From positions 1 to 33,930 of the forward strand of contig RBNJ01000292.1 in assembly GCA_003990765.1 (NCBI GenBank): 33,930 nt of DNA. The letters are read 5' to 3'. The DNA comes from Jimgerdemannia flammicorona (taxonomy: Eukaryota). The notes beneath the pieces are model-generated. The model was not told where the DNA came from and ran no database searches. It was given only the letters and a program-made list of their open reading frames with translations. Below, piece after piece: positions 4,353 to 33,885 of the stretch (the first letter of the stretch is position 1; every line of letters starts with the position of its first letter). A program made the translations under genes and the position numbers.

Positions 4353-4381
4353 GGATTGAATGAGAACAACCATATTTTACT

Positions 4382-8233: not shown

Positions 8234-8250
8234 AAGGAATGAGTGAAGAT
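8234..8250 (+). repeat. right target-site duplication of the LINE
   Basis: Identical to 2220-2236. Confidence 0.95.
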
Positions 8251-11200
8251 CCAAACACATTCTACACAAGAATCTAATACTAGATAATCCTTGTAGATTA
8301 TGCTGATATTATCTGAGACCAAGTAGCTGAAGCAACCTTCATGAAAGGAGTCTACCCAGAGATAACTATGGCCATCTGCTCATTACCAGTGATTCTGGAT
8401 CTGCCACAGAAGGTCACCTATGCTCAGCAATACTGGATAGCCAGACATCCACAAGACCATACAATGGAGAGGATCACAGGAGTCAGAATTAAAGCACCTA
8501 AGGCAACCAGTGTAATCTCTACCACAATGATCAATCAAAACACACCTTAGCCCAAAGCTACAAAGTAGCAAAAGAACAGTAACTCTTTGGAGAAACTTAC
8601 CAAGAGGTTTGCAGAAATGACTACCCACCTGGGAGATGTAGTAAAAGAGATCAGAGGAAGAGACTGCCACTTTGTTTAGAAGTTTGCTGCCACCTCAGAT
8701 AAGAAGAAAGATATCTGCTACACCTGTGGAGAAGAAGGCCACTACTCCTATAAATATATGAGCAAAACCAAGTACAAGGCCCAGCCAAGTAATGCCACTA
8801 GAAACAAGGAGCAGGCCAATATAATTATCTTCGAAGAAATTGCAGATTCTGACAAAGAAGAATGGGAGGCCTATCCTGCCCAGACCACTAAGAAGGATGT
8901 TTACAAAAAGCCCTACAAGAGACTGCTGGAAAGACCCAAGAAGAACCCAGTAGAAAAGCAGATGGAAACTGCCACAGAAAGTCAAGCCAAAGAGATGGAC
9001 CAAGATATGGAGCTGGAGCAAGCAGTTCAAGATATTATTCAAGGAACCACTCCAGCCAGTGAAGGAGAAAAAGAAAAGAAACTTTATAAGACCAAGACTT
9101 TCAAGTATGATATCTTCAAGGATCTTAGCCAACAAAAGGTCAATGCAACTTTTGGTCAGCTCACAGAAATCCCAACATTCAGACAGCAAATGAGGTTTGG
9201 ACTCACTGAAACAACTAAGGAGCAAGGATGGAAGATAACTGAGGCCAATAATGTTCAAGAGGACTCAGGAGAAGAAAGTGAAGATAATCACAAAACCTCT
9301 GCCTATGCAATATGCCAGATTGAGGATAGAATCTTTGAAGCTATCATTGATACTGGAGCAGAAGGATGTCTTCTCAGCAAGAAGGCAGCAGACCACCTAG
9401 GTTGGGAGGTTGAAGAAGTAATCAAGTTGGTGTTTGTCACAGCAGATGGCACAAGAGCCACCCCTCTGGGAAGGATCTGAGATGTCTCCATCAATATTGG
9501 AGGAGCAACCATTCCAGTAGATGTAATCATAACCAATGCCACAAACTATGACATCCTCATCAGCAATTAATAGCTTTACAAAGCTAGGGCAGTAATTGAC
9601 CTCAATGCTCAGAAGATGCAAATAATCTATCAGAGACAGAAGATATGAATTCCCATCAATGTCAACAAAAGAGTCTTGCCTGATATGGAGAAAAAAGAGA
9701 ACAAGCAAGAGGAAGCTTATATGGTAACTATTCTGAAGAAGAAAGTAGAATGGATGAGTGAAGAAGAATAGTGCAAGAAGATCACAGAAGGCTATGCACT
9801 ACAAGGAGTCTGTCCTCACAGGATCAAGATATACTATATGCAGCATATCAATGATTGCTATCAGTGCACCATCAGAATCAAAAAGATCCACCAGGAAAGA
9901 AGACAGAAAGCTCTCAAAAAACAGGTCAGAGAAGAGAAGGAGGAGGAAGATAATGAACCACCAGCTCTTCTGGAGGACAGTGACAATGAAGAAATCAAGG
10001 TCAAGATTCGAAGGACCCACCCTGATGCAGTCCTGCCAGAATACCAGTCAGAAAATATAGCTGGAATAGATATCACCACAGTAGAAGAAGCCATACTGGA
10101 ACTCCAGACAACCACCCTACTCACAACTGGACTAGAGATAACTATTCCAAAGGATCATGTTGGGATCCTCAAGACAAGAAGCAGCCTAGCCAGAAGCAAA
10201 ATTACTATTGAAGGAGGAGTCATCAATTCTGACTATACTGGAGAAATCCTGTTCATTATCAGGAATCACAATTCTACAATTTCATTCCCAGTCAAGAAGA
10301 AGGACTGATTGGCACAGATGCTGATCTTTCTAATTCTACAACCAAGGATCATAGAAGTCAAGAATTTGGAGAAAATGAAAAGAGAAAAGAAAGGATTTAG
10401 ATCTATAGGAAGAGGAGTATTCACCAGTACCAAGATCACCAAACTGGAGTATAAGAAGGAAGAAACCACAAACAAGCACAGCTACACCATTGGAAATGAA
10501 TTCCCACTCAAGGAAGAACTCAAGAAAATACTCCATGAATTCGAGGATATCCTTACTACAGATTTCAAGGATATCAAAGGAAAGACTCCACACTACTATC
10601 ATGAGGTAGATACTAGAGACACCAAACCAATTTACCAGAAGGCAAGACCTGTCCTGCCAGTCTACCAAGAATAGCTCAGAGAAGAAATCAAGCAGATGGA
10701 AGAAGCTGGTATTATCAAAGAAGCCAGTAGTCCCTGGTCTTCACCAGTTGTACTAGCCCTGAAAAAAGGAAGTAAGTCTGGAGAATTTGCCCCAAGACTC
10801 TGTATTAACTACAGAAAGCTCAATGTGGTTACCAAGAAGAATCGCCAACAACTGCCCCTCATCAGCGACATCCTTATAATACTAGGAGATGAAGCACACT
10901 ACTACAGCACCTTAGACTTATACTCAGGATTCCACAAAATTGGACTCACAGAAATGGCAAGTAAAAAGTCAGCCTTCATCACCTCTGATGGAACCTATAT
11001 CTACCTGTGAATGCCATTTGGGATGTGCAATACACCAGCAAGCTTCCAGCAAATGATGAACAAAATCTTCTGCTATGACATGGGAAGATGGATGATAGTT
11101 TATGTTGATGATGTAATTATCTACAGCAAGATACTTGAGGAATATCTGCAGCACATATGGCAGATAATAAAGAGACTAAGACAACATGGCCTTTACATCA

Positions 11201-11675: not shown

Positions 11676-12139
11676 TAACATGAATCAGAGGAATAAGATA
11701 TTTGATCACAATATCTGAATTTGATTTCCAAATATAGTATAGCCCAGATAGTAGTCATTTCACAAATGTTAAAGTTTTCATAAATATTAAACTATTTACA
11801 AATGTTAAACTCTTTGATAATTGTCAAAAATTTAACAGATGTCAAGAATTTAACACTTGTGAAAGAAATGACTCATAGGAAATATAGTCATAACTTAGCC
11901 ATCTCATAGCTAGCAAAACTTGTATAAATAACCTAGTATCTTAGAGTGAATAAAGCCTCAGATTGAAATAGTTCAAAGCAAAGAGATAACAAAGGAACTA
12001 ATAAGTCTGTTGACAGATATACTTCAAACTCACCCACCCTCCCCTGCAACTCAAAGGACTCTGCAAGAGTCAGAACAGTCAAGTTCTCAAGATATAGAAA
12101 TCTGATATACTTTCAAGAGTAAGCATCTACTATATTACA
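11654..12139 (+). repeat. 3' LTR of element A
   Basis: TGTGACAG...ATTACA, 486 bp, followed by the CTAT TSD. Confidence 0.95.
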
Positions 12140-12801
12140 CTATATAACTAAAGAGTCTAGATTATTACTTTTGAGATAAAAAAATATAAATAAATAGAGC
12201 TCCATCTCTAAAGATATTAGAAGACTATAAAATAGAGTTACTAATTATTAGAATTAAAGTAAATATAACTGAGAAAGTTTATCTATATTTTTTATCTTGA
12301 GTAAATATTCTATAAAGAGACAGATTCTTCTCATTAAATAAATATAGTAAATCTAAATGATAATATTATCTAGATAATATAAAGAGTTTTATTTATTTAT
12401 TTATATTAAGACTATATAACTCCTTTAGTATTAATTATTAATTTAAAAAGTGAAGAGAACTATTTTGTATTTATAGTAGTTAATAAATTATCTCTATTTT
12501 ATCTAAATTTATATATATCTTATATATAAAGAGTAGTTTTGTTTTAATAAGATATAATGATCTCAAAGTCTTATCTATAGTTATTTATATATATTTATAT
12601 TAATAGTAACTTTATAAGAAGTATGTAATTAATCATTTTACTTAACTAATTTATTAAATTACTATTATAAATTTATTTAAAATTTTATTGAAATAGTTAT
12701 AAATATTAGAATAGTAACTCAATATATCAATATATAATTATATTATTCTATTAGTTTTATATCATTTATCAGTAATATGTGAAATATATAACCTATATAA
12801 C

Positions 12802-16069: not shown

Positions 16070-16538
16070 TATAATATAGCAGATGCTTACTCTTGAAAGT
16101 ATGTCAGATTTCTATATCTTGAAAACTTGATCTTCTCTGACTCCTCAGAGTCCTTTGAGTTGTAGGAGAGGGGGTGAGTTCAAAGTATATCTGCCCATAG
16201 GCTTACTAGTTCCTTTGCTATCTCTTTGCTTTTGAACTATTTCAATCTGAGGTTTATTCACTCTAAGATACTGGGTTATTTATATAAGTTTTGCTAACTA
16301 TAAGGTGGCTAAGTAATAGCTTATTTTACAAGTGTTGAATCTTTTAATATCTGCTAAGATTTCACTGATTGTGAAGATTCTAACATCTCTTAAATCTTTG
16401 CAAATGTTAAAGTTTCTGCACTTTGCAGAATATGGCTGCTATTTATGAGGCTAAGCTATATTGGGAATCAGATTCAGGTACCATGATCAAATGTCCAATT
16501 TCCTTGTTTCATATTACTAATTTGGATCAGCCATCATA
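16070..16538 (-). repeat. 3' LTR of element B
   Basis: Same length as and colinear with 22310-22778; the PPT abuts at 16539. Confidence 0.93.
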
Positions 16539-17041
16539 TCTTCCTCCTGAATAGGTGATTCATCTTGGGAGCATCCTATTCACTCGAATTCCCAGACTTC
16601 TACAATTTGTATTTTCTTATACTGTATGATTTATATCATTATATCCTTCCAATATTGTCTCTTGATATATCCAAAGTCTCCTAGAGTTACTCCTCAGAAA
16701 TGGGCTAAGGCTGACTTGTCGTCTTTAAATAACTTGTGCACTCTTTTTACAATTGTGATCTGAGTGTAATAGAGCTGACATTCTCTGATCCAGTCTTCTT
16801 TTCCCATCTTTGGTCTTGAATTCAGTAGCTGTCCCAACTTGAAGTATTCCTAAAACTCAGTTTGGTTCTGGTAGGTCTTGAAATATGAGATTTATGATAA
16901 GTGTGTTTGCACTATACTCTGGATACTATCAAAGGATTCTTCTATTATTGGTGGCTCGGTGGAACACTACTGTCTTTTGATGGCTCACTGGGCTACACTA
17001 GTAATTCTGAGGGCAGCAGTATTACTTCATTGACTGGTCAT
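16517..17041 (-). pseudogene. element B ORF3 (~174 aa, unknown product)
   Basis: ATG at 17041 overlaps the end of pol; 175 codons without frameshift to a TAG inside the LTR; internal stops are reversible by single transitions. Confidence 0.65.
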
Positions 17042-20000
17042 GATACTTCTTGAGTCAGTTTCAGTGGATAGTAGTGGAGATGATTGTGCCTGAGAGTTTT
17101 CATACCCAAAAGGTGGTTCCTTTTATATCTTGCACAAGGTAAGGTCCTTCCCACTTGGGCTCCAGTTTTCATGACCATGAGACTTCTACCATGTTCTGAT
17201 ACACTAGGACTTTGTCTCCTATCTTAATAATCTCCAGGGCTTGTGGGTTTTTTTCCACATTCTTCCATTGTAATGCCTGTGCCTTCATTATATAATCCTC
17301 AGCCTTCTTTCTGATTTGGTGTAGTCTCTGTATTTCTCCATCCACATGTCTCCATATAGCATCTTCATTAGACAATAGGATTTCTCAAGAACTTTCTTCT
17401 CCAAACAGCATCTCTCGAGGGGTAAAGTGGGTACTTTGTGATCTGATATCCCAGAGAGCAGATAATGCTATTGGCAGATAGTGATCCCAGTTTTCATAGT
17501 TATCATAGATCTTGGCAATAACATTCTTGAGGGTCTTCTTGGTCCTTTCTGCTTGTCCATTTCCTTGGGGATAATAGGCTGTGGTCCAAATATACTGGAT
17601 CTTGTACTTCTTGTAGAGAATCTCAAAGAACTGGTTTATGAATTCTGTTCCTTTATCTATAGTTACTTGCATTGGAGTCTTGAACCAGCAGATGATTTCT
17701 TTGTGGAAGAAATCAGTGATTGACTGTGCATTGGCTTCCTTGAGGGGTCCTGCTTCTACCCATTTTGTAAAAAGGTCTATGATAACAATAATATATTGGT
17801 TACCAGTCAGGGTCAAGAGTAGAGGGCCAATTACATCCATTGCTATGTGGGCAAATGGTACTGGTTCTATATGTGCTGATCCTGGGGCTTGGTTTTATTG
17901 GTCTTGTTTCTGTTTCTGGCATTTGTCACAGGTTTCTGATATCTTTCTCTATTCCTGGCCACCATATCATTCTTCTTGCCTTTTCATATATATTCATTCC
18001 TCCTAGATGGCCAAGTTTATGTACTGATTTCATTGTTTGCTCCTTCTTGTGTTCTGGTATGACTAGTAGTTTTCCTTTCTTCAGTATTTGTCTGTCAGTT
18101 TTGAATTGTTTCCATGTTCTGTTGATAATCATTTGCATCCATTCTTCCAGATATTGGGGCATCTTTCACTGTCCCAGATATGTGATAATTCCATAGTAGA
18201 GCTCCTTATTCATAATTGATTTGTTGGTTGGAGATATTTCAAGGTATCCATGAGAGAGCATCTACATTAGAATTTGTTCTTCCAGAGCAGTGTACAATGG
18301 TTACATCATAGACTTATAGCTTCATTATCCATCTGGTGTAGATTCCTTTGAGTTGTTTGGTTATCAGTAGCCAGGTGAGAGCTGAGTGGTCTGTCTGGAT
18401 GGTGAAGTATCTTTCAGCCAGATAGTAGTGGAACTTTTCCACAGCCCAGATAACTGCAAGGCATTCCAACTTGTAGGATTCATATTCTTTTTCAGCTCCT
18501 TGAGTTCCATGGCTAAGGTATATAATAATGTACTCTTTTTTGTCTTTCTTTTGAGCTAGGACTGCTCCTAGTCTCTGTGTACTTACGTCTATCTACAGAA
18601 TGAATTCTTGAGTCCAATTGGGTCATCTAAGGATAGGTGCCTGAGTTAGTCTGATCTTGAGTTCATCAAATGCTTTTTGTTGTCTGTCAGTCCACTGGAA
18701 CTTAGTATTCTTCTTATTGAGTTCATAGATTGGGCCTGTGATGTTAGAGAATCCTCTAATAAATCTGCAATAGTAGAAGGCAAGTACCATGAAGGCTTGA
18801 GCTTCTGTAACAGTAGTGGGCCTTGGGTATGCTGCTACCACTTATATCTTGAGTGGGTCTGTATATATTCCATCTCGATTGATAATATGGCCAAGGTAGG
18901 AGATCTTGATTTCTGCAAACTTGCACTTCTTGAGTTTGATGTAAAGGCCATATTGTCTTAGTCTCTCTATTATCTACTATATATGCTGCAGATGTTCCTC
19001 AGGTGTCTTGCTGTAGATAATTACATCATCGATATAGACCATCATCTATCTTCCCATATCATAGTAGAAGATTTTGTTCATCATTCACTGAAAGCTTGCT
19101 GGTGTATTGCACATCCTGAATGGCATTCATAGGTAGATGTAGGTTCCATCTAGGGTGATGAAGGCTGACTTTTCACTTACCATCTCTGTGAGTCCAATTT
19201 GGTGGAATCCCAAGTATAAGTCCAAGGTGCTGTAGTACTGTACTTCGTCTCCCAGTATTATAAGGATGTCACTGATGAGGGGCAGTGGTTGGCGATCCTT
19301 CTTGGTAACTGCATTGAGCTTTCTGTAGTCAACACAGAGTTTTGGGGCGAATTCTCTAGGTTTGCTTCCTTTTTTTAGGGCTAGTACAACTGGTGAAGAC
19401 CAGGGGCTGCTGGCTTCTTTAATAATACCAGCTTCTTCCATCTGCTTGATTTCTTCTCTGAGCCATTCTCAGTAGGCTGGTGGGACAGGTCTTGCCTTCT
19501 GGTAAATTGGTTCGGTGTCTCCAGTATCTACCTCATGATAGTAGTGTGGAGTCTTTCTCTTGATATCCTTGAAATCTGTGGCAAGGATATCCTCGAATTC
19601 GTGGAGTATTTTCTTGAGTTCCTCCTTGAGTGGGAATTCATTTCCAATGGTGTAACTGTGCTTGTTTGTGATTTCCTCCTTCTTATACTCCAGTTCAGTG
19701 ATCTTGATACTGGTGAATACTCCTCTTCCTATGGATCCGAACCCTTTCTTTTCTCTTTTTGTTTCCTCCAAATTCTTAACTTCTATGATCCTTGGTTGTG
19801 GGATTGGAAAGATCAACATCTGTACCAATCAGTCCTTCTTTTTGACCAGGAATGGAATTGTAGGATTGTGATTCCTAACAATGAGCAGGATTTCTCTAGT
19901 ATAGTCAGAATCGATGACTCCTCCTTCAATCGTAATTTTGCTTCTGGCCAGGCTAATTCTTGTCTTGAGGATCCTGACATGATCCTTTGGGATAGTCATC

Positions 20001-22195
20001 TCCAGTCCAGTTGCAAGTAGGGTAGTTATTTGGGGTTCTAGTATAGCTTCTTCTACTGTGGCAATGTCCATTCCAGCTGTATTTTCCGACTTGTATTCTG
20101 GCAAGACTGCATCAGAGTGGGTCCTTCAGATCTTGACCTTAATTTCTTCTTCATCATTGCTATCCTCCAGGAGGGCAGGTGGTTCATTATCTTCCTTCTT
20201 CTTTTTTTCTCTGATCTGTTTTTTGAGAGCTTTCTGTCTTCTTTCCTGGTGGATTTTCTTGATTCTGATGGTACACTGATAGCAATCATTGACATGCTCC
20301 ATACAGTATATCTTGATCCTGTGAGGACAGACTCCTTGTGGTGTATAGTCTTCTGTGATCTTCTTGTACCATTCTTCTTCACTCATTCATCCTACTTTCC
20401 TCTTCAGAATAGTTACCATATAAGCTTCCTCCTGCTCGCTCTCTTCTTCCTCTATGTCAGGCAAGACTTCTTTGTTGACATTGATGGGAATTCATATCCT
20501 CTGTCCTTGGTAGGTGATTTGTATCTTCTGGGCATTGAGATTGATTACTGCCCTGGCTTTATAAAGCCATTGATTGCTGATGAGGATGTCATAGTTGGTG
20601 GCATTGGTTACAATCATGTCTACTGGGATGGTTGCTCCTCCAATCTTGATGAGAACATCTCAGATCTTTCCCAGAGGGGTGGCTCTTGTGCCATCTGCTA
20701 TGACAAACACCAACTTGGTTGCTTCTTCAACCTCCCAACCTAGGCAGTCTGCTGTCTTCTTGCTGAAAAGACATTCTTCTGCTTCAGTATTGATGATGGC
20801 TTCAAAGACTCTATCTTCGATTTGGCATATTACATAGGCAGAGGTTTTGCGATTGTCTTCACTTTCTTCTCCTGAGTTCTCTTGAATATTATTGGCCTTG
20901 GTTATCTTCCATCCTTACTCCTTGGTTGTTTTGGCAAGTCCAAACCTCATTTGTTGTCTGAATATTGGGATTTCTGTGAGCTGACCAAAGGTTGCATAGA
21001 TCTTTTGTTGGCTAAGGTCCTTAAAGATATTGTACTTAAAAGTCTTGGTCTTGTGAAGTTTCTTTTCTTTTTCTCCTTCACTGGCTGGAGTAGTTCCTCA
21101 GATAATATCTTGAACTGCTTACTCCAGCTCTATATCTTGGTCCATCTCTTCAGCTTGGCTTTTGGTGGCTGTTTCCATCTACTTTTCTACTGGGTTCTTC
21201 TTGGGTCTTTCTGGTGATCTCTTGTAGGGTTCCTTGTGAACATCCTTCTTGGTAGTCTGAGCAGGATAGACCTCCTATTCTTCTTCATTAGAATCTCCAA
21301 TTTCCTCGAAGGTAATTATATTGGCCTGCTCCTTGTTTTGTATAGTATTGCTTAGTTGAGCCTTGTACTTAGTTTCACTCATGCATTCATAGGAGTAGTG
21401 GCCTTCTTCTCCGCAAGTATAGCAGGTGCCTTTCTTCTTATCTGAGGTGGCAGCAAACTTCTGGACAGGGTGGCAGTCTCTTCCTCTGATCTCCTTTACT
21501 ACATCCCCCAAGTGAGCAGTCATTTCTATGAATCTCTTGGTAAGTTCCTCCAAAGGGTCACTGTTCTTTTGCTGCTCTGTAGCTTTAGACTGAGGTGTGT
21601 TTCAATTGATCATTATGGTGGGGATCACACTGGTTGACTTAGGTGCCTTGATTCTGACTCCTGTAACTCTCTCCATTATATAGTCTTGTGAGTATCTGGC
21701 TATCCAGTATTACTGAGCATAGGTGACCTTCTGTGGTAGATCCAGATTCACTGGTGATGAGTGGATGGCCATAGCTATTTCTGGGTGGACTCCTTTTATA
21801 AAGGTTGCTTTGGCTACTTGATCTCAGATAGCAGCAGCATAATCTGCAAGAATTATCTGATATCGAATTCTGATATAAAATGTGTTTGGATCCTCACTTA
21901 TTTCTTATCATGTTGTGTTGAGCTGATCCTTTAGGACTTGCTTGATCTCATCTGTATAATATATATTTTGGAGCCAGGTCTTCTGTACTGTCAGTATAGT
22001 ATTGGTATCATTTTCTGCATGAGTTGTGGCTATGAATGCTGCTCTGACAGGACCTCATAGGCTGAAGGGCATGAGGGCTACTTGCTGTATTGCTGTCAGA
22101 GTCCTTACAGTGGTATACTGCTTGAAATCATCAATGAAGGTGATGATTGATTCATCTGAGGTATATTCATAGAATACTGGTAGTCTCATATCCAT
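17022..22195 (-). pseudogene. element B gag-pol polyprotein (gag, CCHC, PR, Zn motif, dUTPase, RT, RNase H, integrase with GPY/F; no chromodomain seen)
   Basis: CYTCGEEGHYSYEC; PWSSPVV; FQWTDRQQKAFDELK; HKLGHLGG; MDVIGP, DKGTEF and TAYYPQGNGQAER; KLEPKWEGPY. One frame from 22195 to ~18620, with frameshifts later. Confidence 0.95.
19727..20143 (-). pseudogene. dut: dUTPase domain in element B polyprotein
   Basis: AGMD, RISLA, GGVIDSDYTRE, LVQML and REKKGFGSIG. Confidence 0.93.
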
Positions 22196-22309
22196 CTTGT
22201 CTAGGTATTGGGGCTTGGTTTATATGGTTGTTCAGGTAGGGGTAGTTGTTTGTTGTTCAGCTTGAAAGTGAGGAATTTGTCTTGAATTACCAGCCAATGG
22301 GCACTAAGT

Positions 22310-22778
22310 TATAATGTAGTGGATGCTTACTCTTGAAAGTATGTCAGATTTCTGTATCTTGAAAACTTGATCTTCTCTGACTCCTCAGAGTCCTTTGAGT
22401 TGCAGGGGAGGGGGTGAGTTCAAAGTGTATCTGCCCACAGGCTTACTAGTTCCTTTGCTATTTCTTTACTTTTGAACTATTTCGATCTGAGGTTTATTCA
22501 CTCTAAGATACTGGGTTATTTATACAAGTTTTGCTAACTATAAGGTAGTTAAGTAATGGCTTATTTCGCAAGTGTTGAATCTTTTAACATCTGCTAAGAT
22601 TTCGCTGATTGCAAAAATTCTAATATCTTCTAAATCTTTGCAAATGTTAAAGTTTCTGCACTTTGTGGAATGTGGCTGCTATTTATGAGGCTAAGCTATA
22701 TTGGGAATCAGATTTAGATACTACAATCAAATCTCTAATTCCCCTATTTCATGTTATTAATTTGGATCAGCCATCACA
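22310..22778 (-). repeat. 5' LTR of element B
   Basis: Minus-strand TGTGATGG start at 22778; PBS follows at 22306-22291. Confidence 0.93.
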
Positions 22779-23220: not shown

Positions 23221-23407
23221 GAGAGAAAATGGTTCAAAGATCTATATAGATATATTGATCAAGATATCTATATCAATGTTCTAGTCAGTACAAATATAAT
23301 ACTCAAAGTAACCATTACTAATCTCTTCAGTAGTTAATCAAAATTATTTTCAACCACTATATGAGTCTGAGTCAGAGTTATCTGAGCTAAGAATAATAAA
23401 GATCAAA

Positions 23408-26400
23408 TATAAGAGGGTTACTTTATTAGAATACTGTTATATAGTTCTGAAAGAGTTTTCTAGATATTCTGGATATTCTAGAAGACTGTTTTCTTTAGAT
23501 CAAAATCAATTTCATATAGAGTACATCCTCTATACTTATTGATTTCAAGAATAGATTAATGTCTCAACCAAAGTCCTTTTTTGGACTAGTTCTGGATGTT
23601 TAGGATTTTCTATATTTTAGAAAGTTCAAAAAACTAAGACTAGCTTAGTTGAATTGGTATATTGTTGTAGATAATACCTAATTAGAAAATTTTAAGATCT
23701 GATTAAAGTGAGACCTAATAGAGTATAGATTTACTTAAGAGTGGTTTGTGGGTTATTAAATAGATTTATTTACTATTTATGATATTGCTATACTAGAAGT
23801 AGTATATGAAGAGATATTTATATAGAGAAGTATTCTTAAGTTGTTCTTATCTGTTTAAGTCTGTTTATGTCTATTTAAGTCTAAGTTTCTAAGATCTGGG
23901 GAAATAGATATTTATACTAATGAGAGACTATCTGGACTATACTAAATGTAGATATAGTACTTAGTACTTTGATAAGTCAGAATATAGTTATATAGTATAA
24001 GTTGTAAACTAACATATTAAGAGATTGTCTAACTACTGAGTCAGTATATAGTCATATAGTATAAGGCTAATATAACTATACTAATAACTGCTAAGCTATC
24101 TACATATTTAGATACTATCTAGGTATTCTTCAATAAGGTTACTATTAATAACATTATCTCTGATAAAGTAGTTATCTAGGAAGAGTAGTTCTTGGATTAT
24201 ATCTCTCTGTTTATTTATTATAAGCACACAACCTCCAAGCCACCAAAATTGCATGGTATCCTCAGAACTAATTCAGAAACCACATGCGAGACTACAAAAC
24301 AAGAGATCATCTGGTTACACGAAATATGCCAGCAAGCATGAGAACCCACCACCAAGATACAAAAATACTAGAAGAAGTACTACAACCATAAGACGGACTC
24401 TGAACTGTTATAACTAGTTTGGTGTACTGTACTATTACAAAAGAAACTGAAAGTACCAAACTCAAATCAAGATAAGAAGAACCCTATCTCACCCATCAAA
24501 AGGTTCACAAACTGCACTTATCAACCCAAGACTAAGATATACCATGACTATACAAGACCTCATTACTTAGCAGAAGCAAAATGCATTTGAACAACTCCAT
24601 TCGCTTTATCTATGTCACCTCCGTTGGAGAGTGATGGATACTTTATCTGAACTCAAGAAAGCCAACAATGTTGAAACCAATCTCAAGCCATCCATGTGAC
24701 AGATATTACTACTAGAAATTGCCTTGAATTACAGAAAATATCATTTCCGAGAGGTTTGAACCCCCAGCCGTGACATTAGGAGTCCTCACCCTAGATGAGA
24801 ATGGCCAGTCCTCACAAATGCGCCAGCAGACCAAAAAAAAAAGAGAACCAAGATCTGTTATCCTTGTACAACCACCGCCACTAAGGACAGCCTTAATCTT
24901 GCAAGAGATAGAAGTGATGATACCTTGAAACTGATGAGGTCAGAAGTCAGAAAACTGCTCAGACTTTGCCAGTGATGATGTCATCAATAGTGATATCATC
25001 AAGGACTAACCAGACAGTGCCTAAATCTATAAATAGTCTAGCAGTCATAGCATAGTTAGATTAGCCTTGTACGATATAACTGTGAACTGACTCAGCAATC
25101 AGATGATCTCTTGACATATCAGATCACACTTATACTACGTGACTGCATTCCGACTCAGCAAGACACTTAGTGCTACATCCATATTCAGCATAGTCCAGAT
25201 AGCCCCTCACTAGTATAAATACCCCCTCCCCCAGACCTCAGAATCTCAGACTTGAACAATCCGAACACAACTCTTGAGCACTTCCCCACAATATTCCTTC
25301 ACACAAATACTCCTAGTATAGCAATATCATGAATAGCGAATAAACCTATTTAATAATCCACAAATCACTCTTAAGTAAATCCACTCCCTGTTAGGTCTTA
25401 CTCCTAACTCCATCACGAAATTTCCTAATTGGGTATTGTCTGCAGCGATACGCCAATTCAACTAAGCTGGTCTTAGTATCTTGAACTTCCTGAAATACAG
25501 AAAATCCCGAATATCCAGAACTAGTCCGAAAAAGGGACTTTGGTTGAGATGTCAACCCGATCTTGAAATCAATAAGTGTAGAGGATATACTCCATACAAA
25601 ATTGATCTTGACCATAAGAAAACGGTCTTCCAGAATATCTAGAACTTCCAGAAAACCTTCTAGAACTACGTAATGGCTACCCTAAAAAGTAACCCTCTTA
25701 CATTTATATAATAATAGATTGAAACTATATTATCATTCTATAGAATAGCATCATCTGTCTTATATACTAGATAGGGTGTTAGTGAGTAGAGAAGGGATAC
25801 ATTATCTTTACTTTCATCAGATTTGCTATTAGTATATCTTTGATATATTATAGTACTATATATTATAAGATTATAGTATACTGGTAGCTATGGTTTATTT
25901 TATTCATAGTTAAGAGATGGGGTTGTTGGTTCAATCTCAAGAGTTGTCTAGAGATATAGGTTATATTCTTTGATCTCTTCATTATAGTTGAAGTGATTAG
26001 TATAAATATAGATTAGTATTCATGCCAGTGGTCATTATCCTAATAGGTCTCATAGGTAATTATAAACTATTATAAGTTCATCTGCTTTGTTATTATCAAA
26101 CTAGATTATATTATAGATATTCTTTATTATATATCTAACTTGGGGTATTTGTAGAATATAATCATTAGAGTATAGAAAGAGTCTATCTGTAGTTTGGGCA
26201 TACTTGATATACTTGTGATTGAGTTCTTATACCATATTATCAATTTGTCTATAGGACAGAATAACAACTATTTCAATAGTAGTAACTCAGAGATAGGGAA
26301 TAAAGATACTATACTCATAGAAGAGTTCTTAGAGTTTACAGGTGATGAGTTTCTAGTATTGAGACATTTCAGTAATATCTGTATTATAGTGATAGCTAAC

Positions 26401-26497
26401 TATATCTTCCAGGAGATAGCTGATCTAATAGTAGCTTAAGATTTATCCAATTCAGTAGGCCTCACTAAGTATGTTCAGAATATTCTATTGAGCTTCT

Positions 26498-26537
<40 letters not shown>

Positions 26538-26935
26538 GTTCTATCAAGCTTTTATAAAATAAAGAAGTGCTAGACTATAGATATTCATGAGAAGCAGGAG
26601 AGCTGTGGCTCAGTTGATAATGACATTTCAAATATCAGTATAGATATAGTTATAGATTTCAGTAGTTATGTTTGGTATATGTTTGAGAGTTATAGTTGTT
26701 TATTTAGTTTATTGTAGTTCTCTATTTTAATATACCTATATATTTAGTATATATGTTTTTAGTTCTGATTAGTAAGATTTTATTTTTGTAAATCTTATAT
26801 TTTGTGACTTCAAGTTAACTTAGCTTCATAATCTGTGACTTTAGTTTGACTCAGCTTTATAATCTTACATATGGTTTCTAAATTTATTCTGAGGATAACA
26901 GGTGATTTCAGTAGCTTAGAGGTTGTATACTTATA
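23408..26935 (-). repeat. 3' LTR of element D (~2.04 kb after removing the nested solo LTR)
   Basis: The minus-strand start TATAAGTATACAACCTCTAAGC at 26935 follows the PPT AGAAGAGAAGAGT and matches the solo-LTR start; 23408-23915 matches 33369-33885. Confidence 0.8.
24219..25702 (+). mobile_element. solo LTR (1484 bp) of a family related to D, inserted inverted in D's 3' LTR
   Basis: TATAAG (decayed TGTAAG)...CTTACA termini; 5-bp TSD TTTAT at 24214-24218 and 25703-25707; TATAAATA near 25214 and AATAAA near 25339. Confidence 0.88.
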
Positions 26936-27370
26936 ACTCTTCTCTTCTTAGCTTTTGATATCTTTATTGAGATCTTCTAATTTGGTCTAATATTGTTATA
27001 TCATTTGGATGGTCAAAAGTCTGGTAATATCTATTTTTTTCAGAAAGTAGCATACTTATAGTATAGTTGTCTAATATGTTGGATTTATATATTAAAGGGT
27101 CATATATTCAATACTATATACTAGAAGTAATTCTGATATTATTCACTACTGGAGAATTTTCTTTAAGAAATCTTTTTAAATATCTATATCTCATTTCTCA
27201 CTAGTAGTATAGAGAGAATAGACTGGCTTTCAGTTTTGCTATTTTTTTAGAGAGTTAGTATTTCTTTTGTCTTAACTTACTGAGTTCTTAATTTATTCAT
27301 AAGTACTTTTAATAATATTTGGAAGGAGTAATATATAGTATAGAGCTAATAGGTATTAGAGTATTCAGGT

Positions 27371-27535
27371 TTAGTTATTCAAGGAATTATATTCTTAAAC
27401 TAAGTCAGTGGTATTCTGGAGGTTGGTTTTGGATTTCTATGTTATATTATGGATCAGATAATCTTTCTATTTGATAAGGTATTCTGGATAATTCTTATGA
27501 CTACATTTGTTCAACTTCATATTCTTCCTGGTCAT
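27371..27535 (-). pseudogene. chromodomain at the integrase C-terminus of D
   Basis: DQEEYEVEQ...EYLIK*KDY...T*KSKTNL matches EYEVE..YL.KW.GY....TWEP..NL, with W codons turned to TAG and a small indel. Confidence 0.85.
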
Positions 27536-30500
27536 TAATGATAACAGGTACTAGTGGTTTTGTAATTTGATTTGGGAATAGCTTATCATTATTTTTGTTA
27601 TATTGCTTGAGATATTGAACATGAAGACAGTGTAAATCTTGATGGTATCTGATAATATCAATTTGTAGAAAGTTGGAAAAACTTATATAATAACTTCAAA
27701 TGGTCTAATAAATTTGCAATTCAGCTTTGTAGAGAGTCTGTACTTGAGGTTGTCAACTCAGTATCCTTGAATATCTAGTAGAACTTTTTCTCTAATATCA
27801 AAGTTTCTTCTCAGTAGTACTGGTTGATATACTATGATTATTGCTTCTGAGCTTACAATAAATTCTTAATTGTAATCTGGCTTAAGTTGTATATTTGGAA
27901 CAGAAATTCTTCAATAGCTTCTACAGTAAAGAGTTTATCAGTAGTTTAGATAAGTATTAGAAGAGTGTGTAGATTTTGTCCTATATTGGCAAAGAATAGA
28001 ATTATTCCAAGAGAGGCTTATTTGCTATTATTATAGATAAACTCAACTGCAGTAAGATATTTATATCAATTATCTTATCTATAGAAAACATAGCTCTTTA
28101 GTATTTGCTCTAAAGTTTGATTTATCCTTTTAGTTTAGTTATTAGTTTTGGGGTAAAAGACTATAAATAGACATTAATTACTAACAATGATCTTGGAAAG
28201 ATCATAATAGTAGAAGATATTATCAAATAAGAGTATAGTGATTTCTGATACTATTGTAGTTGTAGCAGTAGATATGAAGTGGACTTATTTGCCAAAATAG
28301 TCTATAAAGATAATAATTGCATCTTTTCTATTCTTGGTTCAGAGTAGTTGTATAATAAAGTCTATAGAGATTTATTCCCAATTAGCAGATAGTAGAATAG
28401 GGTGAAGTAGGTCAGATTTTACTAATATTGAGAACTTATTGCATTAGTAGATATTATAAGAAGTGATGTGGGTCTTTAGCTAATCTGCTATATATGATCA
28501 ATAGAAGTTTTAGAAAATAACTTTATAATATTTGTCAAATTCTAAATATCTGACTATAGAGATATCATGACATTCAAATAAGATAGTTCTTTGGAGATCT
28601 AAATTATTAGGAATATATAATCTGTTCTTATTGTAGATATTATTGTCCTTTAGTTAGTATTAATGATACTGAGAGTATTTGTCAATATCATTATTACTTA
28701 GGATTTCTCAGGATTCTTAAGCTTCTTTATTATCAGTGTATGCTGTGATAATTTATTCTATATTTGAGTTGGTAACTAAGGTGAGAGTTTGTATAACTTC
28801 TTTGATTAGTGGTCTGAAAATTGTATCAGCAATAATATTTTTCTTACTGAGGCAGTATTGGATTTCATAGTCAAAATTGGTGAAGACTTTCATCTATCTG
28901 GCTTGTTTTCAAGAAAGGGTAGTCTGGATCTTAATACTGACTAATGATTTGTGATCTGTCAAAATAGTGAAGTATACTCCTTTAAAATATGGTTGCTATT
29001 TAATCAGAGTGTCTATGATGGCTAATATTTCCTTCTTATGGGTTGTATAGTTGATTTTGGTATCATTGAACTTATAAGAATGATAGGCCACAGAGTGTTC
29101 TTCTTGTATAAGTACTGTCCCAAGAGCTAGATCTGAGACATTAGTATAATAGGGCAGAATTTACCACTTGAAGTACTGGAGTAATTATCAAGATATCTTT
29201 TAGTACTTAAAAGACTGTATCTTATTTGAGTCTATAATTTATGAGATTGTTGAAGTCTTTTTCTTAGTTTGTAGTTCAGAGCTGTCCTTCTTTTTTTTAC
29301 AATACTTAGTCATTTGGATAAGGATAGTAGTAATCTTGGTGAAGTTTGTAACAAATCATCAGTAATAGTTTACTAGTCCCAAGAATGATTGGAGGTCTTT
29401 CAGCTTCTTAGATCTAGATCATTCCTTGATTATGGAGATTTTACTAGAGTTTACTTTAATTCTATTGAGAGTGATAATATGTCCAAAGAATTGAATTTTC
29501 TTTAGAAGAAATTTATACTTACTGAGTTTTATAAAGAGTTAATTTTCTTAAAACTTCAGTAGTACTAGTCCAAGATGTTTGAGATATTCCTCCAGGGTTT
29601 TACTGAAGACTAAAATATCATCAATATAGATAATAATATATTTGTCTAAATATGGATATAGAATAGTATTCATTAGTATCTAGAAGGTTGTAGAAGTATT
29701 AGTTAAGCCAAAAAGCATAACTAAGAACTTGAAATATCTATAGTAAGTTTGGAAGATAGTTTTGTAAATATCTTCTTCTTTTATGGTAATTTTCCAGTAG
29801 CTATTTCATAATTCAAAAGAGCTCATAAACTGTGGGTTGGTAAGTCTATCAAATATTTTATTGATTTGGGGTAGTGAGCAATAGTTCTTAATAGTCTGTT
29901 CATTGAGGTCTTAGTAGTCAATATATATTTATAGATCTTCTCCTTTCTTGACAACAAAGAGGACTGGTATACTATATAGTGATATACTAGGTCTAATGAA
30001 TTCTTGTTTTAGGAGTTTATTAATTTTCTTCTTGAGTATATTAATTTTTTTAAGAGATATGTAGTAGATTGACTTGAAGGCTAGCCCAGTATCCGGGATA
30101 GTCTTGATAGTATAGTCAACTACTTATTTATATAGTAGACCTTTTAGAAGTTTCTTTGGAAATATATTTCAGAATTTCTGAAGTAAGAATCTAACATAGC
30201 TATCAACTTGAAAAAGTCTTCTTCAAGGTTCTTAGGTTCTTCTTTAGATAGATTCATATATAGAGATAGCAAAGAGAGGATATTTCTTAGCTAATTTCTT
30301 AAGTTGTAGTTTATAGATATGAGGTCTGGGTCACTAGAACTAAGTGAGTCTCTTTTGTCTTATAGTTTGAAATTGTGACATCCTTTCTTAATAGTCAGAA
30401 AATAATTTATTCAATCAATCATAGAGTTCTCTTATTTTAATCATGGAGTCCTAAGGATGATCTCATTGTTAGAAAGTAGTATAATTTGGAGTATAATACA

Positions 30501-30945
30501 TATATACTCAGTAGTCACTGCTTCAGAAGGATAGATTGTAGACTTCTTTGCTAATAACATGAGAGGTTCTATTAACTATAGTATATAACAGCTTAAGTCT
30601 ATTGTACTGGAGAGATCAGGACCTTGAGTCTATTGGCTATTTCTTCATTGATGAAGTTACCTAAGATACCACTGTCTATCATAATCTTGACAGATACTTG
30701 ATTAACAAAAACTTGGAGGATAAGCAGTTTGTCTGATCCAATAGTGGTAACTTCAGTTATAGGAGATTTCCTTCTATTGGTTCTCCTTTGGGCCAGTTCA
30801 TTGATATAAAAAAAGTAATTGTCAATTATTTGAGAAGAGTATATTTTAATATTATGGGGGTATTAGCCACTTGGTACAAATCCATCTCCAATTTTCTTAT
30901 AGAATTGTTCTTTCTTATTTGTAGTAGGTTATACTGAGGATTTTT

Positions 30946-31357
30946 TTAATAAGCCAAATCTTTATAATTCTCAAATAGTAGGCAGTAGTTCAGAAACTTC
31001 CTTAGCTGTCAGAGTTAACTCAATTTTCTCAAATAAGATCTGTGTGATACAAAAACCAATAGAGATCTTGAATGGTGTCTAGCTATAGTTTTGGATGAGG
31101 ACAATGATTTTATCTGTATAATTTTCATCAATGATTTCTCCTTCTACTGAGAGTTATTTTAATACTAGGCTGCTGTAACAGTATATTCTTCTAATATATC
31201 CTTCAGAAATTTGAATATTGATTCCCATATAGACTTGCTTAACTTCTTGATTAGAAACTATAGCTTTTTCAACTATATATAAATCATATTAAGCTGTTTT
31301 TTGGCTTTCTTTAGTTGGAGCTATAGCAGTTATTCTCAGCTTAACAAAGTCTAATAT
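30946..31357 (-). pseudogene. dut: dUTPase domain of element D, between the Gag zinc knuckle and protease (absent from the ORF track)
   Basis: LDFVKLRITAIAPTKESQKTA*YDLY...GINIQISEGYIRRIYCYSSLVLK*LSVEGEIIDENYTDKIIVLIQNYS*TPFKISIGFCITQILFEKI...TI*EL*RFGLL; all five motifs in order, no frameshift. Confidence 0.88.
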
Positions 31358-33368
31358 CTTAATAGTCAGATTGTTGAGGTGATGCAGAGTAGTAATAGTT
31401 ATTCATATTGCTATTTAAGGTTTTTAGTTGGGGCAGACACTAGCTATATGTCTTGTCTTTTAACAATAGAAGCATACTCTGCTTCTTCAGAGTTCATTTC
31501 TTTCTCCTTTGGTAAGTTTCTTGAAGATACTCAGCTGAGTGGGTTCAGGATTTCAGAGTATCTAAGAGATGAATGTGGAGAAAGCTTGGGATACTTTATA
31601 TTTGGATTCTTCTTTCTTAGTTCTTATTGTTGAATTGTTTTTAAGGTAAAATTGGTCTAGCTATCAGAATTCACTTGATCATAGTCTTGATTCTTGCTAA
31701 GTAGCATTGTTAGTGATCACAATCAGCTAGGTATCCTTGTTCTCAGATATTTCTTATGAGCTATTCTGGTAGCATATCAAATAAATGATCTGCTCTTATA
31801 CTATTTCATACTTCATCATTGGCAATATATTCTAGGCCAATAGTATTCAAGAGTAACTCAAGTTTTGTACAAAAGGTTTCAAATTCCTTCTTACTATATA
31901 TATATATATCAAATTTGAGATTGTGGAGTTTTACTTAAGATTTAGCAATCAAAGTTTTACTATGATATTGAGCAATTGTAAGTTATTTAAGTCCAGGGGC
32001 TATAGAGTGATCTCTATACTCAGAGATATTATTTGCTATATTTTAGGTAATAACTATATGTCAAATATCTTATATGAGAGGTTTTTTTAGAAAGGATTTA
32101 CCACTATTCTTCAGTAGATTCTTAGAAGAATATAATAACTCAACAGATATACATAGGCTATAGTAGTAGTAAAAAGTTGTTTGATAGTGTAGTCTTGATT
32201 ATTTATCAGAAAGTAGTTAGCCACTCATTTGTTGGTCTATTGGTTGGCTTTGAAATTGATATCAATTATACTAATGAAGCTTTGGACTTCTTGTATAGTA
32301 CTATTGAAGATAGGTAGGCTCAGACTTTTTGTTGATTGGATCTATTCAGCTAAGGTAGTAATGGTTGCTGTTATTATAGTTATCTGGGTAGTAAGATCTA
32401 AATTTGTTAGTTTGTCATATTTATTAGAGATAGTTAGACTACTGATAGTGGGGTTACTGGTACAACTTGAGATACTGATATAGTGTGTTATAGTGTTTTT
32501 TGAGTCTGTGTGAGTTGCTAGAGTAATTATTGTAGATCTGGTATAAAGGCTTGATAAATAACTATCTATTGCTCTATAGGTGTATTTTGTCCTAAGGGAG
32601 ATATATCTCCTATAATAGTATATTTGGAATTGAATTCAGTAAGATATACCTCCTTCTCTTTACTTTGATCTCTATATAGTTGAGTTTATTTAGTATTGAA
32701 GTAGATAGTATTAGTTATATATCTGATTTCAGATGAGCTTAATTCAAAAGCTGGTTCAGGTTCAACATTGGCTTCAGATTCAAATAACTGGGCCTGCTTT
32801 CAGTTCAGAATCAGATTATTAATAAAGGGTTACCCTGACTTCTTCCTTAAGAATATAGTGGACCTTGTAATTCTAAAAATAGTAATATAAGACAGTCTTG
32901 GTCTTAGTTTAGTAATAGTTAGTAGAGTTGAGCCACTTAACTATAGAGACTTGTGTTTTGTAAGAAATTAAGACTAGAAAGACAGCTACTAGTTGTCCTA
33001 AGTTACTCGAGTTTATAAAGCTAACAAAACTCTTATTGAGAAGAGTAAAGAAGACTTCTATAAAACCTTCTTCATTTTGACTTATGAAGTGTAGAGTAAG
33101 AAGTTCAGTTTATAGAGTTTTGTCTATCTGCTGATTTAATTGAAGTACTTTTTTTTGTAAATAAAGTCTGTCTCACTTATTACAGATATGGAGATCAAAT
33201 TGTCCTTGTACATTAGGTTCAATTTACTTCAGATTATCAGATAGTTTAAAATAAATTTCAGTTCAAAGATTAGGCTTTATACTAACTTGTAGAAATTTCT
33301 TATAAGGTTTATAGCAGAGTGAGAAAGTATTTTGAAGCAAAATTAGATTATAACTACTGCTATCAAGT

Positions 33369-33885
33369 TGTAAGAGAGTTACTTTATTAGAGTACTATTA
33401 TATAGTTCTAGAAGGGTTTTCTGGAAGTTCTGGATGTTCTGGATTTTCTGAAAGACTGTTTTCTTTAGGTTAAGATCAATTTTATATAGAGTATATCCTC
33501 TATATTTATTGATTTTAAGAATAAGTTGATATCTTAACAAAAGTTCTTTTTTAGACTAGTTCTGAATATTTAGGATTTTCTATATTTCAGAAAGTTTAAA
33601 AAACTAAGACTAGCTTAGTTAAATTGTCATATTGCTGCAGACAATCCCAATTAGGAAATTTCAGAATCTGGTTAAGAGTGGGACCTAATAGGGTGCAGAT
33701 TTACTTAAGAGTGATTTGTAAATTATTAAATAGATTTATTTATTATTTATAATATTGCTATACTAGGAGTAGTATGTAAAGAGATATTTGTATAGAAAAG
33801 TATTTTTGAGTTAATCTTGTCTGTTTGAGTCTGTTCATATCTGTTTGAGTCTGAGTTTCTAAGATCTGGAGAAGTAGGTATTTAT
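33369..33885 (-). repeat. 5' LTR of element D (U5, R and TATA part only)
   Basis: Matches 23408-23915; similarity stops abruptly within the TATA box. Confidence 0.85.

What the first reader, a model, noticed from the sequence alone, without database searches (positions are those of the whole stretch)
30800..31357. A dUTPase + CPH...CxxC module shared by two distinct Gypsy lineages in opposite domain order
Seen: D reads, in frame between dUTPase and protease, EQFYKKIGDGFVPSG*YPHNIKIYSSQIIDNYFFYI (~30910-30800). B reads EEWYKKITEDYTPQGVCPHRIKIYCMEHVNDCYQCT (~20380-20275), and A has the same motif at ~9760-9870. The two align without gaps (YKKI, P.G, PH.IKIY). The three Tyr in D at Cys positions are TAC/TAT, one G>A step from TGC/TGT. 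A/B order is PR-Zn-dUT-RT; D order is Gag-dUT-Zn-PR. In both the motif lies between dUTPase and protease. A/B and D differ in LTR, PBS and chromodomain. Inference: a C-x-H...C-xx-C Zn-binding microdomain travels with dUTPase as an accessory cassette that was exchanged and reshuffled between retrotransposon families. I do not recognise it as a named domain.
Basis: partly seen in the sequence, partly recalled or inferred. Interest (0 to 1): 0.85.

Follow-up and report, generated by a model that had tools for sequence, protein, structure and literature searches.

The report
Zinc-finger-like module beside retrotransposon dUTPase
Two unrelated families of Gypsy-type jumping genes in this window carry the same small, undescribed cysteine/histidine module next to their dUTPase enzyme, in opposite order, which points to domain shuffling between retroelements.

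Summary
The three peptides lie at 30910..30803 (D), 20377..20270 (B) and 9772..9870 (A). B and D align without gaps, 13 of 34 residues identical, E=1e-6. Pfam confirms the orders: B is Gag knuckle-PR-motif-dUTPase(-RT), D is Gag knuckle-dUTPase-motif-PR.

Database searches found 15 natural proteins with the motif. Thirteen carry dUTPase; the other two are short fragments. Three have the A/B order and ten the D order.

An intact relative of D, P0018, has Cys where D has Tyr. Of 58 D/P0018 differences, 45 are undone by reversing G>A or C>T.

The conserved ligand set is C-P-H-x12-C-x2-C. It has no Pfam family, no PDB sequence match and no clear fold match. AlphaFold2 predicts a confident small helix-hairpin-helix module (pLDDT 87.5).

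The RT tree puts A/B and D in different Gypsy groups. Holding them as one clade is rejected (p-AU 0.017). Some dUTPase-bearing relatives lack the motif (P0075, P0099).

Zinc binding, function and the exchange route remain inferred. No cellular dUTPase outgroup was available.

The parts
30803..30910 (-). D element: degenerate copy of the CHCC module. It contains a stop codon, and all three conserved Cys now read Tyr.
   Evidence: Aligned to intact relative P0018.
30953..31327 (-). D element: dUTPase domain with several stop codons
   Evidence: Pfam PF00692, E=2.1e-16, residues 52-161 of window:30503-31480:-. The alignment to P0012 runs to residue 176.
31427..31480 (-). D element: Gag CX2CX4HX4C zinc knuckle, with a stop codon inside
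   Evidence: Read, coordinates. Pfam did not call it in D.
30605..30730 (-). D element: N-terminal part of the aspartic protease, including the D-S-G active-site region
   Evidence: Weak Pfam hits for Asp_protease_2 and gag-asp_proteas at residues 256-292 (E about 0.03). It aligns with the PR of P0018.
29362..30108 (-). D element: reverse transcriptase core
   Evidence: It groups with P0018 at 100*.
25290..33885 (-). D element as a whole, bounded by LTRs at 25290-25702 and 33371-33885
   Evidence: Self-blastn gives 81% identity over 424 nt between the two LTRs.
20270..20377 (-). B element: CHCC module with all ligand residues present
   Evidence: It was the query of the library search.
19733..20110 (-). 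B element: dUTPase
   Evidence: Pfam PF00692, E=2.5e-19, residues 444-569.
20510..20839 (-). B element: aspartic protease
   Evidence: Pfam RVP_2 and Asp_protease at residues 201-310.
21380..21430 (-). B element: Gag CCHC zinc knuckle
   Evidence: Pfam zf-CCHC, E=1.3e-5, residues 4-20.
18770..19537 (-). B element: reverse transcriptase core
   Evidence: It groups with P0015 at 99-100*.
16070..22776 (-). B element as a whole, bounded by LTRs at 16070-16536 and 22310-22776
   Evidence: Self-blastn gives 91.4% identity over 467 nt between the two LTRs.
9772..9870 (+). A element: CHCC module. One non-core Cys reads Tyr, and there is a stop codon just upstream.
10030..10284 (+). A element: dUTPase
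   Evidence: Pfam PF00692, E=4.1e-17, residues 87-171 of window:9772-10308:+.

Best explanation
The motif is a real, roughly 48-residue autonomous module with the conserved core [W/F]-Y-x-[K/R]-[I/L]-x-x-G-[Y/F]-x-P-x-G-x-C-P-H-x-I-x-M-Y-x7-C-x-x-C followed by a basic helix. It is most likely a small zinc-binding finger whose ligands are Cys, His, Cys, Cys. It serves as an accessory to the dUTPase encoded by Ty3/Gypsy LTR retrotransposons. It lies between dUTPase and protease in two RT-distinct Gypsy lineages, giving PR-module-dUTPase-RT in the A/B lineage and Gag-dUTPase-module-PR-RT in the D lineage. All three copies in this window are dead. D is a heavily C>T/G>A-mutated copy whose three core Cys now read Tyr.

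Shown: conservation, the two domain orders, the link with dUTPase, the non-sister RTs, and the absence of any named family.

Inferred: (1) Zinc binding. (2) The module and dUTPase reached one lineage from the other, or both from a third, by recombination between co-resident elements rather than by descent from a common ancestor. (3) The module, with its basic C-terminal helix, tethers the processed dUTPase to nucleic acid or the nucleoprotein core where reverse transcription runs. That would be the role the NC zinc knuckles are thought to play in betaretroviral NC-dUTPase fusions; this comparison is recalled, not tested.

My odds: real conserved module tied to retroelement dUTPase 0.9; binds zinc 0.7; transfer between lineages 0.55; nucleic-acid tether 0.3.
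For: 1. B versus D: E=1e-6, no gaps.
2. phmmer with B's 49 aa against 1.84 billion representatives gave 12 hits at E<=0.001. Eight are true relatives with E from 2e-15 to 4e-4.
3. A profile search gave 14 hits, 13 of them with dUTPase on record. Together that makes 15 proteins.
4. Pfam finds dUTPase in 13 of the 15. The order is PR/module/dUTPase in P0001, P0015 and P0019. It is dUTPase/module(/PR) in P0002, P0003, P0004, P0011, P0012, P0013, P0014, P0016, P0017 and P0018.
5. In the 16-row alignment, the first Cys, the Pro after it and the last Cys are invariant. The His is present in 15 of 16 rows and the Cys of C-x-x-C in 14 of 16.
6. AlphaFold2 on the module gives mean pLDDT 87.5: helix 9-17, hairpin 24-32, helices 35-40 and 42-68.
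7. In whole P0012 the module is a confident island (pLDDT 78-83 over residues 210-260) between linkers below 50.
8. D versus P0018: 134 of 192 residues identical, and 45 of 58 differences are undone by reversing G>A/C>T. Shuffled pairings gave a mean of 0.17 and a maximum of 0.35.
9. RT trees: B+P0015(+P0053) sit in a group without chromodomains, D+P0018 in a group rich in chromodomain elements. The split is 100*, and one clade for the four is rejected (delta lnL 45.2, p-AU 0.017).
10. By my hand count, 67 of the 120 listed RT relatives carry a protease family with RT, and 64 of those 67 have no dUTPase on record.
11. Module identity across the two orders is 47-58% for P0015 against order-2 proteins, compared with 37.5-42% for RT.
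Against: 1. Zinc binding rests only on the residue pattern and a predicted fold. I could not inspect the model's ligand geometry.
2. No known fold matched, so function cannot be transferred from a relative.
3. The dUTPase tree splits by order (86/84). dUTPase identity across orders (37-47%) is about the same as RT identity. This fits old co-divergence as well as it fits transfer.
4. The module's position relative to dUTPase is inverted in the two lineages, so one cut-and-paste of a fixed cassette cannot explain both.
5. dUTPase works in these lineages without the module. P0075 has the D order, its dUTPase is 61% identical to that of P0012, and it has no module. P0099 is PR-dUTPase-RT with no module.
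6. P0005 and P0008 show the module without a visible dUTPase, though both are short fragments.
7. All 15 relatives are single-member clusters, mostly on contigs of 1-3.6 kb and of unknown origin. I chose the AU-test group after seeing the first tree.
Confidence: 0.6

Rival explanations
1. Vertical descent. One ancient Gypsy ancestor acquired dUTPase plus the module. The two orders arose by an internal rearrangement around the protease, and most descendants later lost both.
For: The dUTPase tree splits into the same two groups as the RT tree (86/84). Cross-group identity of dUTPase (37-47%) is about that of RT (37.5-42%). At least one loss of the module is visible: P0075 is nested among module-bearing dUTPases.
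Against: The RT of module-bearing elements is not one clade (100* split, p-AU 0.017). By my hand count, 64 of 67 listed RT relatives with PR and RT have no dUTPase. Vertical descent would therefore need many independent losses in both large groups, which include plant, animal and fungal elements.
Confidence: 0.25
2. The module belongs functionally to the protease rather than to dUTPase. It could be a flanking domain that controls protease folding, dimerisation or cleavage, and it lies beside dUTPase only because dUTPase was inserted next to the protease.
For: In both orders the module lies between PR and dUTPase, separated from the PR domain by about 13-50 residues.
Against: None of the 119 new proteins from the RT search has the module. 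By my hand count that includes 64 proteins with PR and RT but no dUTPase. P0075 has PR and dUTPase in the D order without the module. So the protease does not need it, and it has not been seen with a protease alone.
Confidence: 0.1
3. Chance or compositional similarity between two decayed, AT-rich sequences, with no real domain.
For: Both window copies are mutated, and the match is only 34 residues long.
Against: E=1e-6 pairwise. There are 15 natural relatives with intact Cys and His and E as low as 2e-15 against 1.84 billion proteins. The fold prediction is confident.
Confidence: 0.02

Closest known systems
dUTPase-bearing Ty3/Gypsy elements of fungi (PosPlaTy3-3/-4/-5 of Postia placenta, elements of Phanerochaete chrysosporium, Tmt1 of Tuber). 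Source: PMC2864245, passages read.
   Same: Gypsy elements carry dUTPase at variable places, including the N-terminus of Pol and between PR and RT. The authors suggest independent acquisition from different sources. P0099 here (PR-dUTPase-RT, no module) fits that description.
   Different: The passages I saw mention no Cys/His module beside the dUTPase. The structure table and dUTPase tree are in supplements I could not open. I could not compare their sequences.
Juno LTR retrotransposons of bdelloid rotifers. Source: PMC5408684, passages read.
   Same: dUTPase lies between PR and RT and is followed by an extra Zn knuckle in pol. So a zinc module next to a retroelement dUTPase has a precedent.
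   Different: It is described there as a Zn knuckle upstream of RT, placed between dUTPase and RT rather than between PR and dUTPase. The pattern here is C-x-H-x12-C-x2-C, not CX2CX4HX4C.
Betaretroviral Gag-Pro arrangement with an NC-dUTPase fusion protein (recalled from memory, no call)
   Same: The order NC zinc knuckle-dUTPase-protease matches the D lineage. A zinc-binding nucleic-acid module attached to a trimeric dUTPase is the working analogy for function.
   Different: The retroviral zinc modules are the CCHC knuckles of NC. The module here is an additional, different finger on the other side of dUTPase (D lineage), or it stands in the place of NC (A/B lineage).
Classical beta-beta-alpha (C2H2) zinc fingers
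   Same: The predicted hairpin followed by a helix carrying two ligands resembles them. The best, though non-significant, Foldseek rows are Zif268-type fingers (E about 5).
   Different: The ligand order and spacing differ: C-x-H in the hairpin and C-x-x-C at the start of the helix. There is no significant sequence or fold match.

Membership tests
Ty3/Gypsy (Metaviridae) LTR retrotransposon (host elements A/B and D) | LTRs flanking Gag (Zn knuckle)-PR-RT-RNase H-IN in that order | tested here: met
   LTR pairs. Pfam finds zf-CCHC, PR, dUTPase, rve and Integrase_H2C2. The RT groups with Gypsy polyproteins.
dUTPase (PF00692), the neighbouring domain | Match to the family profile above the curated cut-off | tested here: met
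   B scores 69.8 bits, D 60.3 bits and A 62.6 bits against a cut-off of 22.
zf-CCHC Gag-type zinc knuckle (PF00098) | C-x2-C-x4-H-x4-C spacing and a profile match | tested here: not met
   The module is C-x-H-x12-C-x2-C. None of the 9 members scanned gave a PF00098 hit at E<=10.
zf-C5HC2 (PF02928) | Profile match above the cut-off of 22 bits | tested here: not met
   Only 1 of 9 members matched, at 15.3 bits and E=0.025.
Classical C2H2 beta-beta-alpha zinc finger | C-x2-4-C...H-x3-5-H ligands on a hairpin plus helix | tested here: inconclusive
   The ligand pattern differs. Foldseek rows to Zif268-type fingers have E about 5. The best VIA-align Z is 4.4 and is driven by the long helix.
Any solved structure (PDB) by sequence | Profile hit with E<=0.001 | tested here: not met
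   The best hit has E=0.36: a copper chaperone, 22 residues aligned.
Chromovirus (for D) | Chromodomain C-terminal to the integrase | tested here: inconclusive
   No PF00385 hit in three frames of D's 3' part. A chromodomain-like stretch is visible by eye. D's RT lies in the group that holds the chromodomain-bearing rows.
Zinc-binding domain in general | Stoichiometric zinc bound by four Cys/His ligands | not testable with these tools
   I have only the conserved C, H, C, C pattern and a confident predicted fold.

The most novel reading that the evidence does not exclude
The CHCC module is a previously undescribed zinc-finger fold. Together with dUTPase it forms a two-part accessory unit that has moved between unrelated Ty3/Gypsy lineages by recombination, being re-ordered on the way. 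It works as a dedicated nucleic-acid tether that places dUTPase at the site of reverse transcription. That would be a retrotransposon counterpart, reached independently, of the retroviral NC-dUTPase fusion.
Probability: 0.25. Interest if true: 0.6.

Novelty: new variant of a known kind. Interest (0 to 1): 0.45.

Why it matters
Why retroelements carry dUTPase, and how they pick up and reshuffle accessory domains, is only loosely understood. This module is short and sharply conserved, and it marks a subset of retroelement dUTPases in two RT-distinct lineages. It offers three things:

- a new profile for annotating transposable elements;
- a concrete case for testing domain exchange between retroelement lineages against dUTPase and RT trees;
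- a small, easily expressed protein for testing whether retroelement dUTPases need a tether to the replication complex.

It is a modest advance, not a new kind of system. Variable dUTPase positions in fungal Gypsy elements and an extra Zn knuckle beside dUTPase in rotifer elements are already in print.

Tried and rejected
- Word-index search of the motif region among proteins of 632-2013 aa: 2 candidates, none scored.
- ESM Atlas with B's 49 aa: best score 0.87, unnamed clusters only, no lead.
- Four of the 12 phmmer hits (P0006, P0007, P0009, P0010) are repetitive proteins matched in 5-9 stretches and lack the C-P-H...C-x-x-C pattern. I dropped them as spurious.
- The search for related loci with the motif alignment in metagenome contigs (20 pattern matches, none confirmed) and in viral contigs (8, none).
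- The search for related loci with the dUTPase-motif alignment in metagenome contigs (13, none).
- Fold searches against PDB (Foldseek), 48,161 PDB representatives (VIA-align, best Z 4.4) and BFVD: nothing significant. This does not show that the fold is new.
- P0053, an A/B-type relative with a roughly 250-aa Cys/His-rich spacer between PR and dUTPase, gives only a 6.8-bit match around an R-C-P-H stretch. I kept it as a lead and did not count it as a member.
- The search of earlier findings by place and by sequence returned nothing.
- Could not be done: whole-genome copy census (no genome held); cluster members and accessions of the relatives (database off); co-folding of the module with a dUTPase trimer (tool unavailable).
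- Literature searches found no description of this motif. One search was uninformative because no listed paper held the term dUTPase.

Full report
WHAT THE WINDOW HOLDS. Self-comparison, six-frame reading and Pfam show three decayed Ty3/Gypsy LTR retrotransposons.

- Element B is on the minus strand, with LTRs at 16070-16536 and 22310-22776 that are 91.4% identical. It is nearly full length.
- Element A is on the plus strand. It is 88% identical to B over 8234-11318, is interrupted by a non-LTR retrotransposon at about 2236-8234, and lacks most of RT-RH-IN.
- Element D is on the minus strand, with LTRs at 25290-25702 and 33371-33885.

The LTRs of A/B and D share no blastn match. A and B differ by 349 transitions and 23 transversions, with a preference for C/T differences before A and G/A differences after T. 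CpG observed/expected is 0.04-0.13 in A and B and 0.01 in D. The copies were therefore eroded by a RIP-like or deamination process. No whole genome is held for this window.

THE OBSERVATION. D's three Tyr at Cys positions are TAC, TAC and TAT. BLASTP of the B segment (580 aa) against the D segment (326 aa) gives two significant matches. One is dUTPase (29 of 99 identical, E=2e-11). The other is the motif (13 of 34 identical, 23 positive, no gaps, E=1e-6).

Pfam fixes the order. In B it is Zn knuckle 4-20, PR 201-310, motif about 355-390, dUTPase 444-569, then RT. In D it is Zn knuckle, dUTPase 52-161, motif about 191-226, and PR from about 251.

IS IT A REAL DOMAIN? B's 49-aa stretch was run with phmmer against 1.84 billion representative proteins. 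It gave 12 hits at E<=0.001. Eight are clear relatives: P0001-P0005, P0008, P0011 and P0012. Four are repetitive proteins matched in many stretches, and I dropped them. A profile of nine motif stretches (A2) then found 14 proteins at E<=0.01, and 13 of them have dUTPase on record. The union is 15 proteins.

In A3 the first Cys, the following Pro and the last Cys are invariant. The His is present in 15 of 16 rows, and the first Cys of C-x-x-C in 14 of 16. The fourth Cys of B (after M-Y) is Ser or Ala in 6 of the 16 rows, including all close relatives of D. The constant ligand set is therefore C-P-H-x12-C-x2-C.

No Pfam family matches; the best is zf-C5HC2 at 15.3 bits against a cut-off of 22, in 1 of 9 members. 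No PDB sequence matches either (best E=0.36).

D'S TYROSINES ARE MUTATED CYSTEINES. P0018 (537 aa: dUTPase end-motif-PR-RT) is an intact relative of D, with 134 of 192 aligned residues identical. Where D reads Tyr at the three core positions, P0018 reads Cys. Of the 58 differences, 45 can be produced by undoing only G>A or C>T changes in D's codons. Shuffled pairings gave a mean of 0.17 and a maximum of 0.35.

DOMAIN ORDER IN THE RELATIVES. Results come from Pfam and the profile positions.

- PR-motif-dUTPase(-RT): P0001, P0015 and P0019, as in A and B.
- (Gag knuckle-)dUTPase-motif(-PR-RT): P0002, P0003, P0004, P0011, P0012, P0013, P0014, P0016, P0017 and P0018, as in D.
- P0005 (82 aa) and P0008 (157 aa) show no dUTPase. 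Both are too short to cover the place where dUTPase would lie in the A/B order.

Both orders are thus natural, recurrent architectures and not accidents of the decayed window copies.

PREDICTED STRUCTURE. AlphaFold2 was run on the module with its 16-row alignment, with a stretch of P0015 as first row. It gives mean pLDDT 87.5: a helix (9-17), a hairpin carrying C-P-H (24-32), a short helix (35-40), and a long helix that starts at C-x-x-C (42-68).

In whole P0012, folded with 9 rows, overall confidence is poor (mean 53.5). The module is nevertheless an island of pLDDT 78-83 (residues 210-260) with the same secondary structure. It is separated from the dUTPase core (60-84) and from the protease start by stretches below 50. 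That fits an autonomous mini-domain on flexible linkers.

Foldseek against the PDB, VIA-align against 48,161 representatives (best Z 4.4) and BFVD gave nothing significant. The weak top Foldseek rows are classical zinc fingers.

ARE THE TWO LINEAGES SISTERS? B's and D's RT cores are 30-32% identical. A profile of both returned 2223 proteins at E<=1e-10, of which the best 120 are listed. By my hand count of the precomputed Pfam column, 67 of these 120 carry a protease family together with RT. Only 3 of those 67 carry dUTPase (P0018, P0053, P0075). P0099 also carries dUTPase but has no protease family on record.

The first RT tree used FastTree on 121 rows. P0029 and P0063 were dropped because their RT stretch was under 200 aa. 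It separates two groups at 100*.

- A 41-row group holds B+P0015 (99*), with P0053 as their sister (99*). It also holds rows named from Glomeromycotina, a pseudoscorpion, a mite and a clam.
- An 80-row group holds D+P0018 (100*) together with all 31 rows that have a chromodomain on record.

The second tree used IQ-TREE (quick search) on 47 rows, which I picked to represent the clades of the first tree. It gives the same picture. Forcing B, P0015, D and P0018 into one clade costs 45.2 log-likelihood units (p-AU 0.017).

DOES THE MODULE ALWAYS GO WITH dUTPase, AND WERE THEY EXCHANGED TOGETHER? dUTPase occurs without the module.

- P0075 has Gag knuckle-dUTPase-PR-RT-RH-IN with only about 25 residues between dUTPase and PR. 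Its dUTPase is 61% identical to that of P0012 and nests among module-bearing dUTPases. A loss of the module is therefore the simplest reading.
- P0099 has PR-dUTPase-RT with short linkers and no module.
- P0053, the sister of B+P0015 in the RT tree, has a roughly 250-residue Cys/His-rich spacer in the module's place. The profile matches it only around an R-C-P-H stretch (6.8 bits).

The dUTPase tree (17 rows, no cellular outgroup available) splits into an A/B-order group and a D-order group (86/84). Between the groups, the module is 47-58% identical (P0015 against order-2 proteins), dUTPase 37-47% and RT 37.5-42%.

The module is clearly homologous across the two lineages and is better conserved than its neighbours. 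Nothing shows a recent exchange, and the inverted order rules out a simple transfer of a fixed cassette. Transfer between lineages is the more economical reading, because dUTPase is rare among the RT relatives of both groups. Ancient presence followed by many losses is not excluded.

MECHANISM (INFERRED). The constant C, H, C, C set, the hairpin-plus-helix prediction and the Lys/Arg-rich helix after C-x-x-C suggest a small zinc finger that could bind nucleic acid. It always sits on a flexible linker next to dUTPase. I therefore think it most likely keeps the processed dUTPase at the nucleoprotein complex where reverse transcription takes place. This would be comparable to the NC-dUTPase fusion of betaretroviruses; that comparison is recalled and was not tested here. 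I put this at about 0.3. A role in stabilising the trimer, or in protease processing, is possible.

WHAT IS KNOWN. PMC2864245 (passages read) reports dUTPase at the N-terminus of Pol, at the C-terminus of Pol, or between PR and RT in Postia placenta Gypsy families, and suggests independent acquisitions. PMC5408684 (passages read) reports dUTPase between PR and RT in rotifer elements, followed by an extra Zn knuckle upstream of RT in Juno. A bioRxiv preprint on Entomophthora muscae (one passage) reports enrichment of dUTPase with retroviral protease domains.

None of the four literature searches turned up this C-P-H...C-x-x-C module. The supplements of these papers, which I could not open, may hold element maps that bear on this.

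VERDICT. The module is a real, unnamed, probably zinc-binding accessory of retroelement dUTPases, shared by two non-sister Gypsy lineages in opposite order. Zinc binding, function and the route of exchange remain to be shown. It is a new variant within a known theme (accessory domains of LTR retrotransposons) and is of moderate interest.

Noticed in passing
window 2236-8234 (+): A non-LTR retrotransposon is inserted into element A just after its 5' LTR region. Pfam gives RVT_1 (E=1.4e-16) and a weak Exo_endo_phos match below the cut-off. Its GC is 51-55% in a 20-30% GC neighbourhood. Its coding strand is strongly G-rich and C-poor (G 0.38, C 0.15, GC skew +0.35 to +0.5). The asymmetry is unexplained.
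   Followed up: partly
window 8234-11318 versus 18819-21906: A and B differ by 349 transitions and 23 transversions. There is an excess of C/T differences before A (82) and G/A differences after T (49). CpG observed/expected is 0.04-0.13. D is more extreme, with GC about 0.29 and CpG observed/expected 0.01. This is a RIP-like or deamination signature.
   Followed up: partly
window 11312-12146: Element A jumps from the middle of RT directly to the 3' end and LTR. The region matches B 16880-16063. A therefore has an internal deletion of about 1.9 kb that removes RNase H and integrase.
   Followed up: no
window 23405-24169 and 24963-25705: There are further D-type LTR-like copies, 75-84% identical to D's LTRs. 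They lie in opposite orientation to each other, between B and D. They may be solo LTRs or remnants of another D-family element.
   Followed up: no
P0053, residues about 590-832: This is an A/B-type relative with the order Gag-PR-spacer-dUTPase-RT. Its roughly 250-residue spacer is rich in Cys and His and contains an R-C-P-H stretch that the module profile matches weakly (6.8 bits). It may be a divergent or expanded form of the module.
   Followed up: partly
P0075, residues 195-221: This is a D-order element whose dUTPase is 61% identical to that of module-bearing P0012. It has only a short acidic linker where the module should be. It is a likely natural deletion of the module.
   Followed up: partly
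table: The nearest named relatives of the A/B-type RT come from Glomeromycotina (Dentiscutata, Entrophospora, Rhizophagus; 42-46% identity). Rows from arthropods and a mollusc fall in the same group. The window's own organism was not determined.
   Followed up: no
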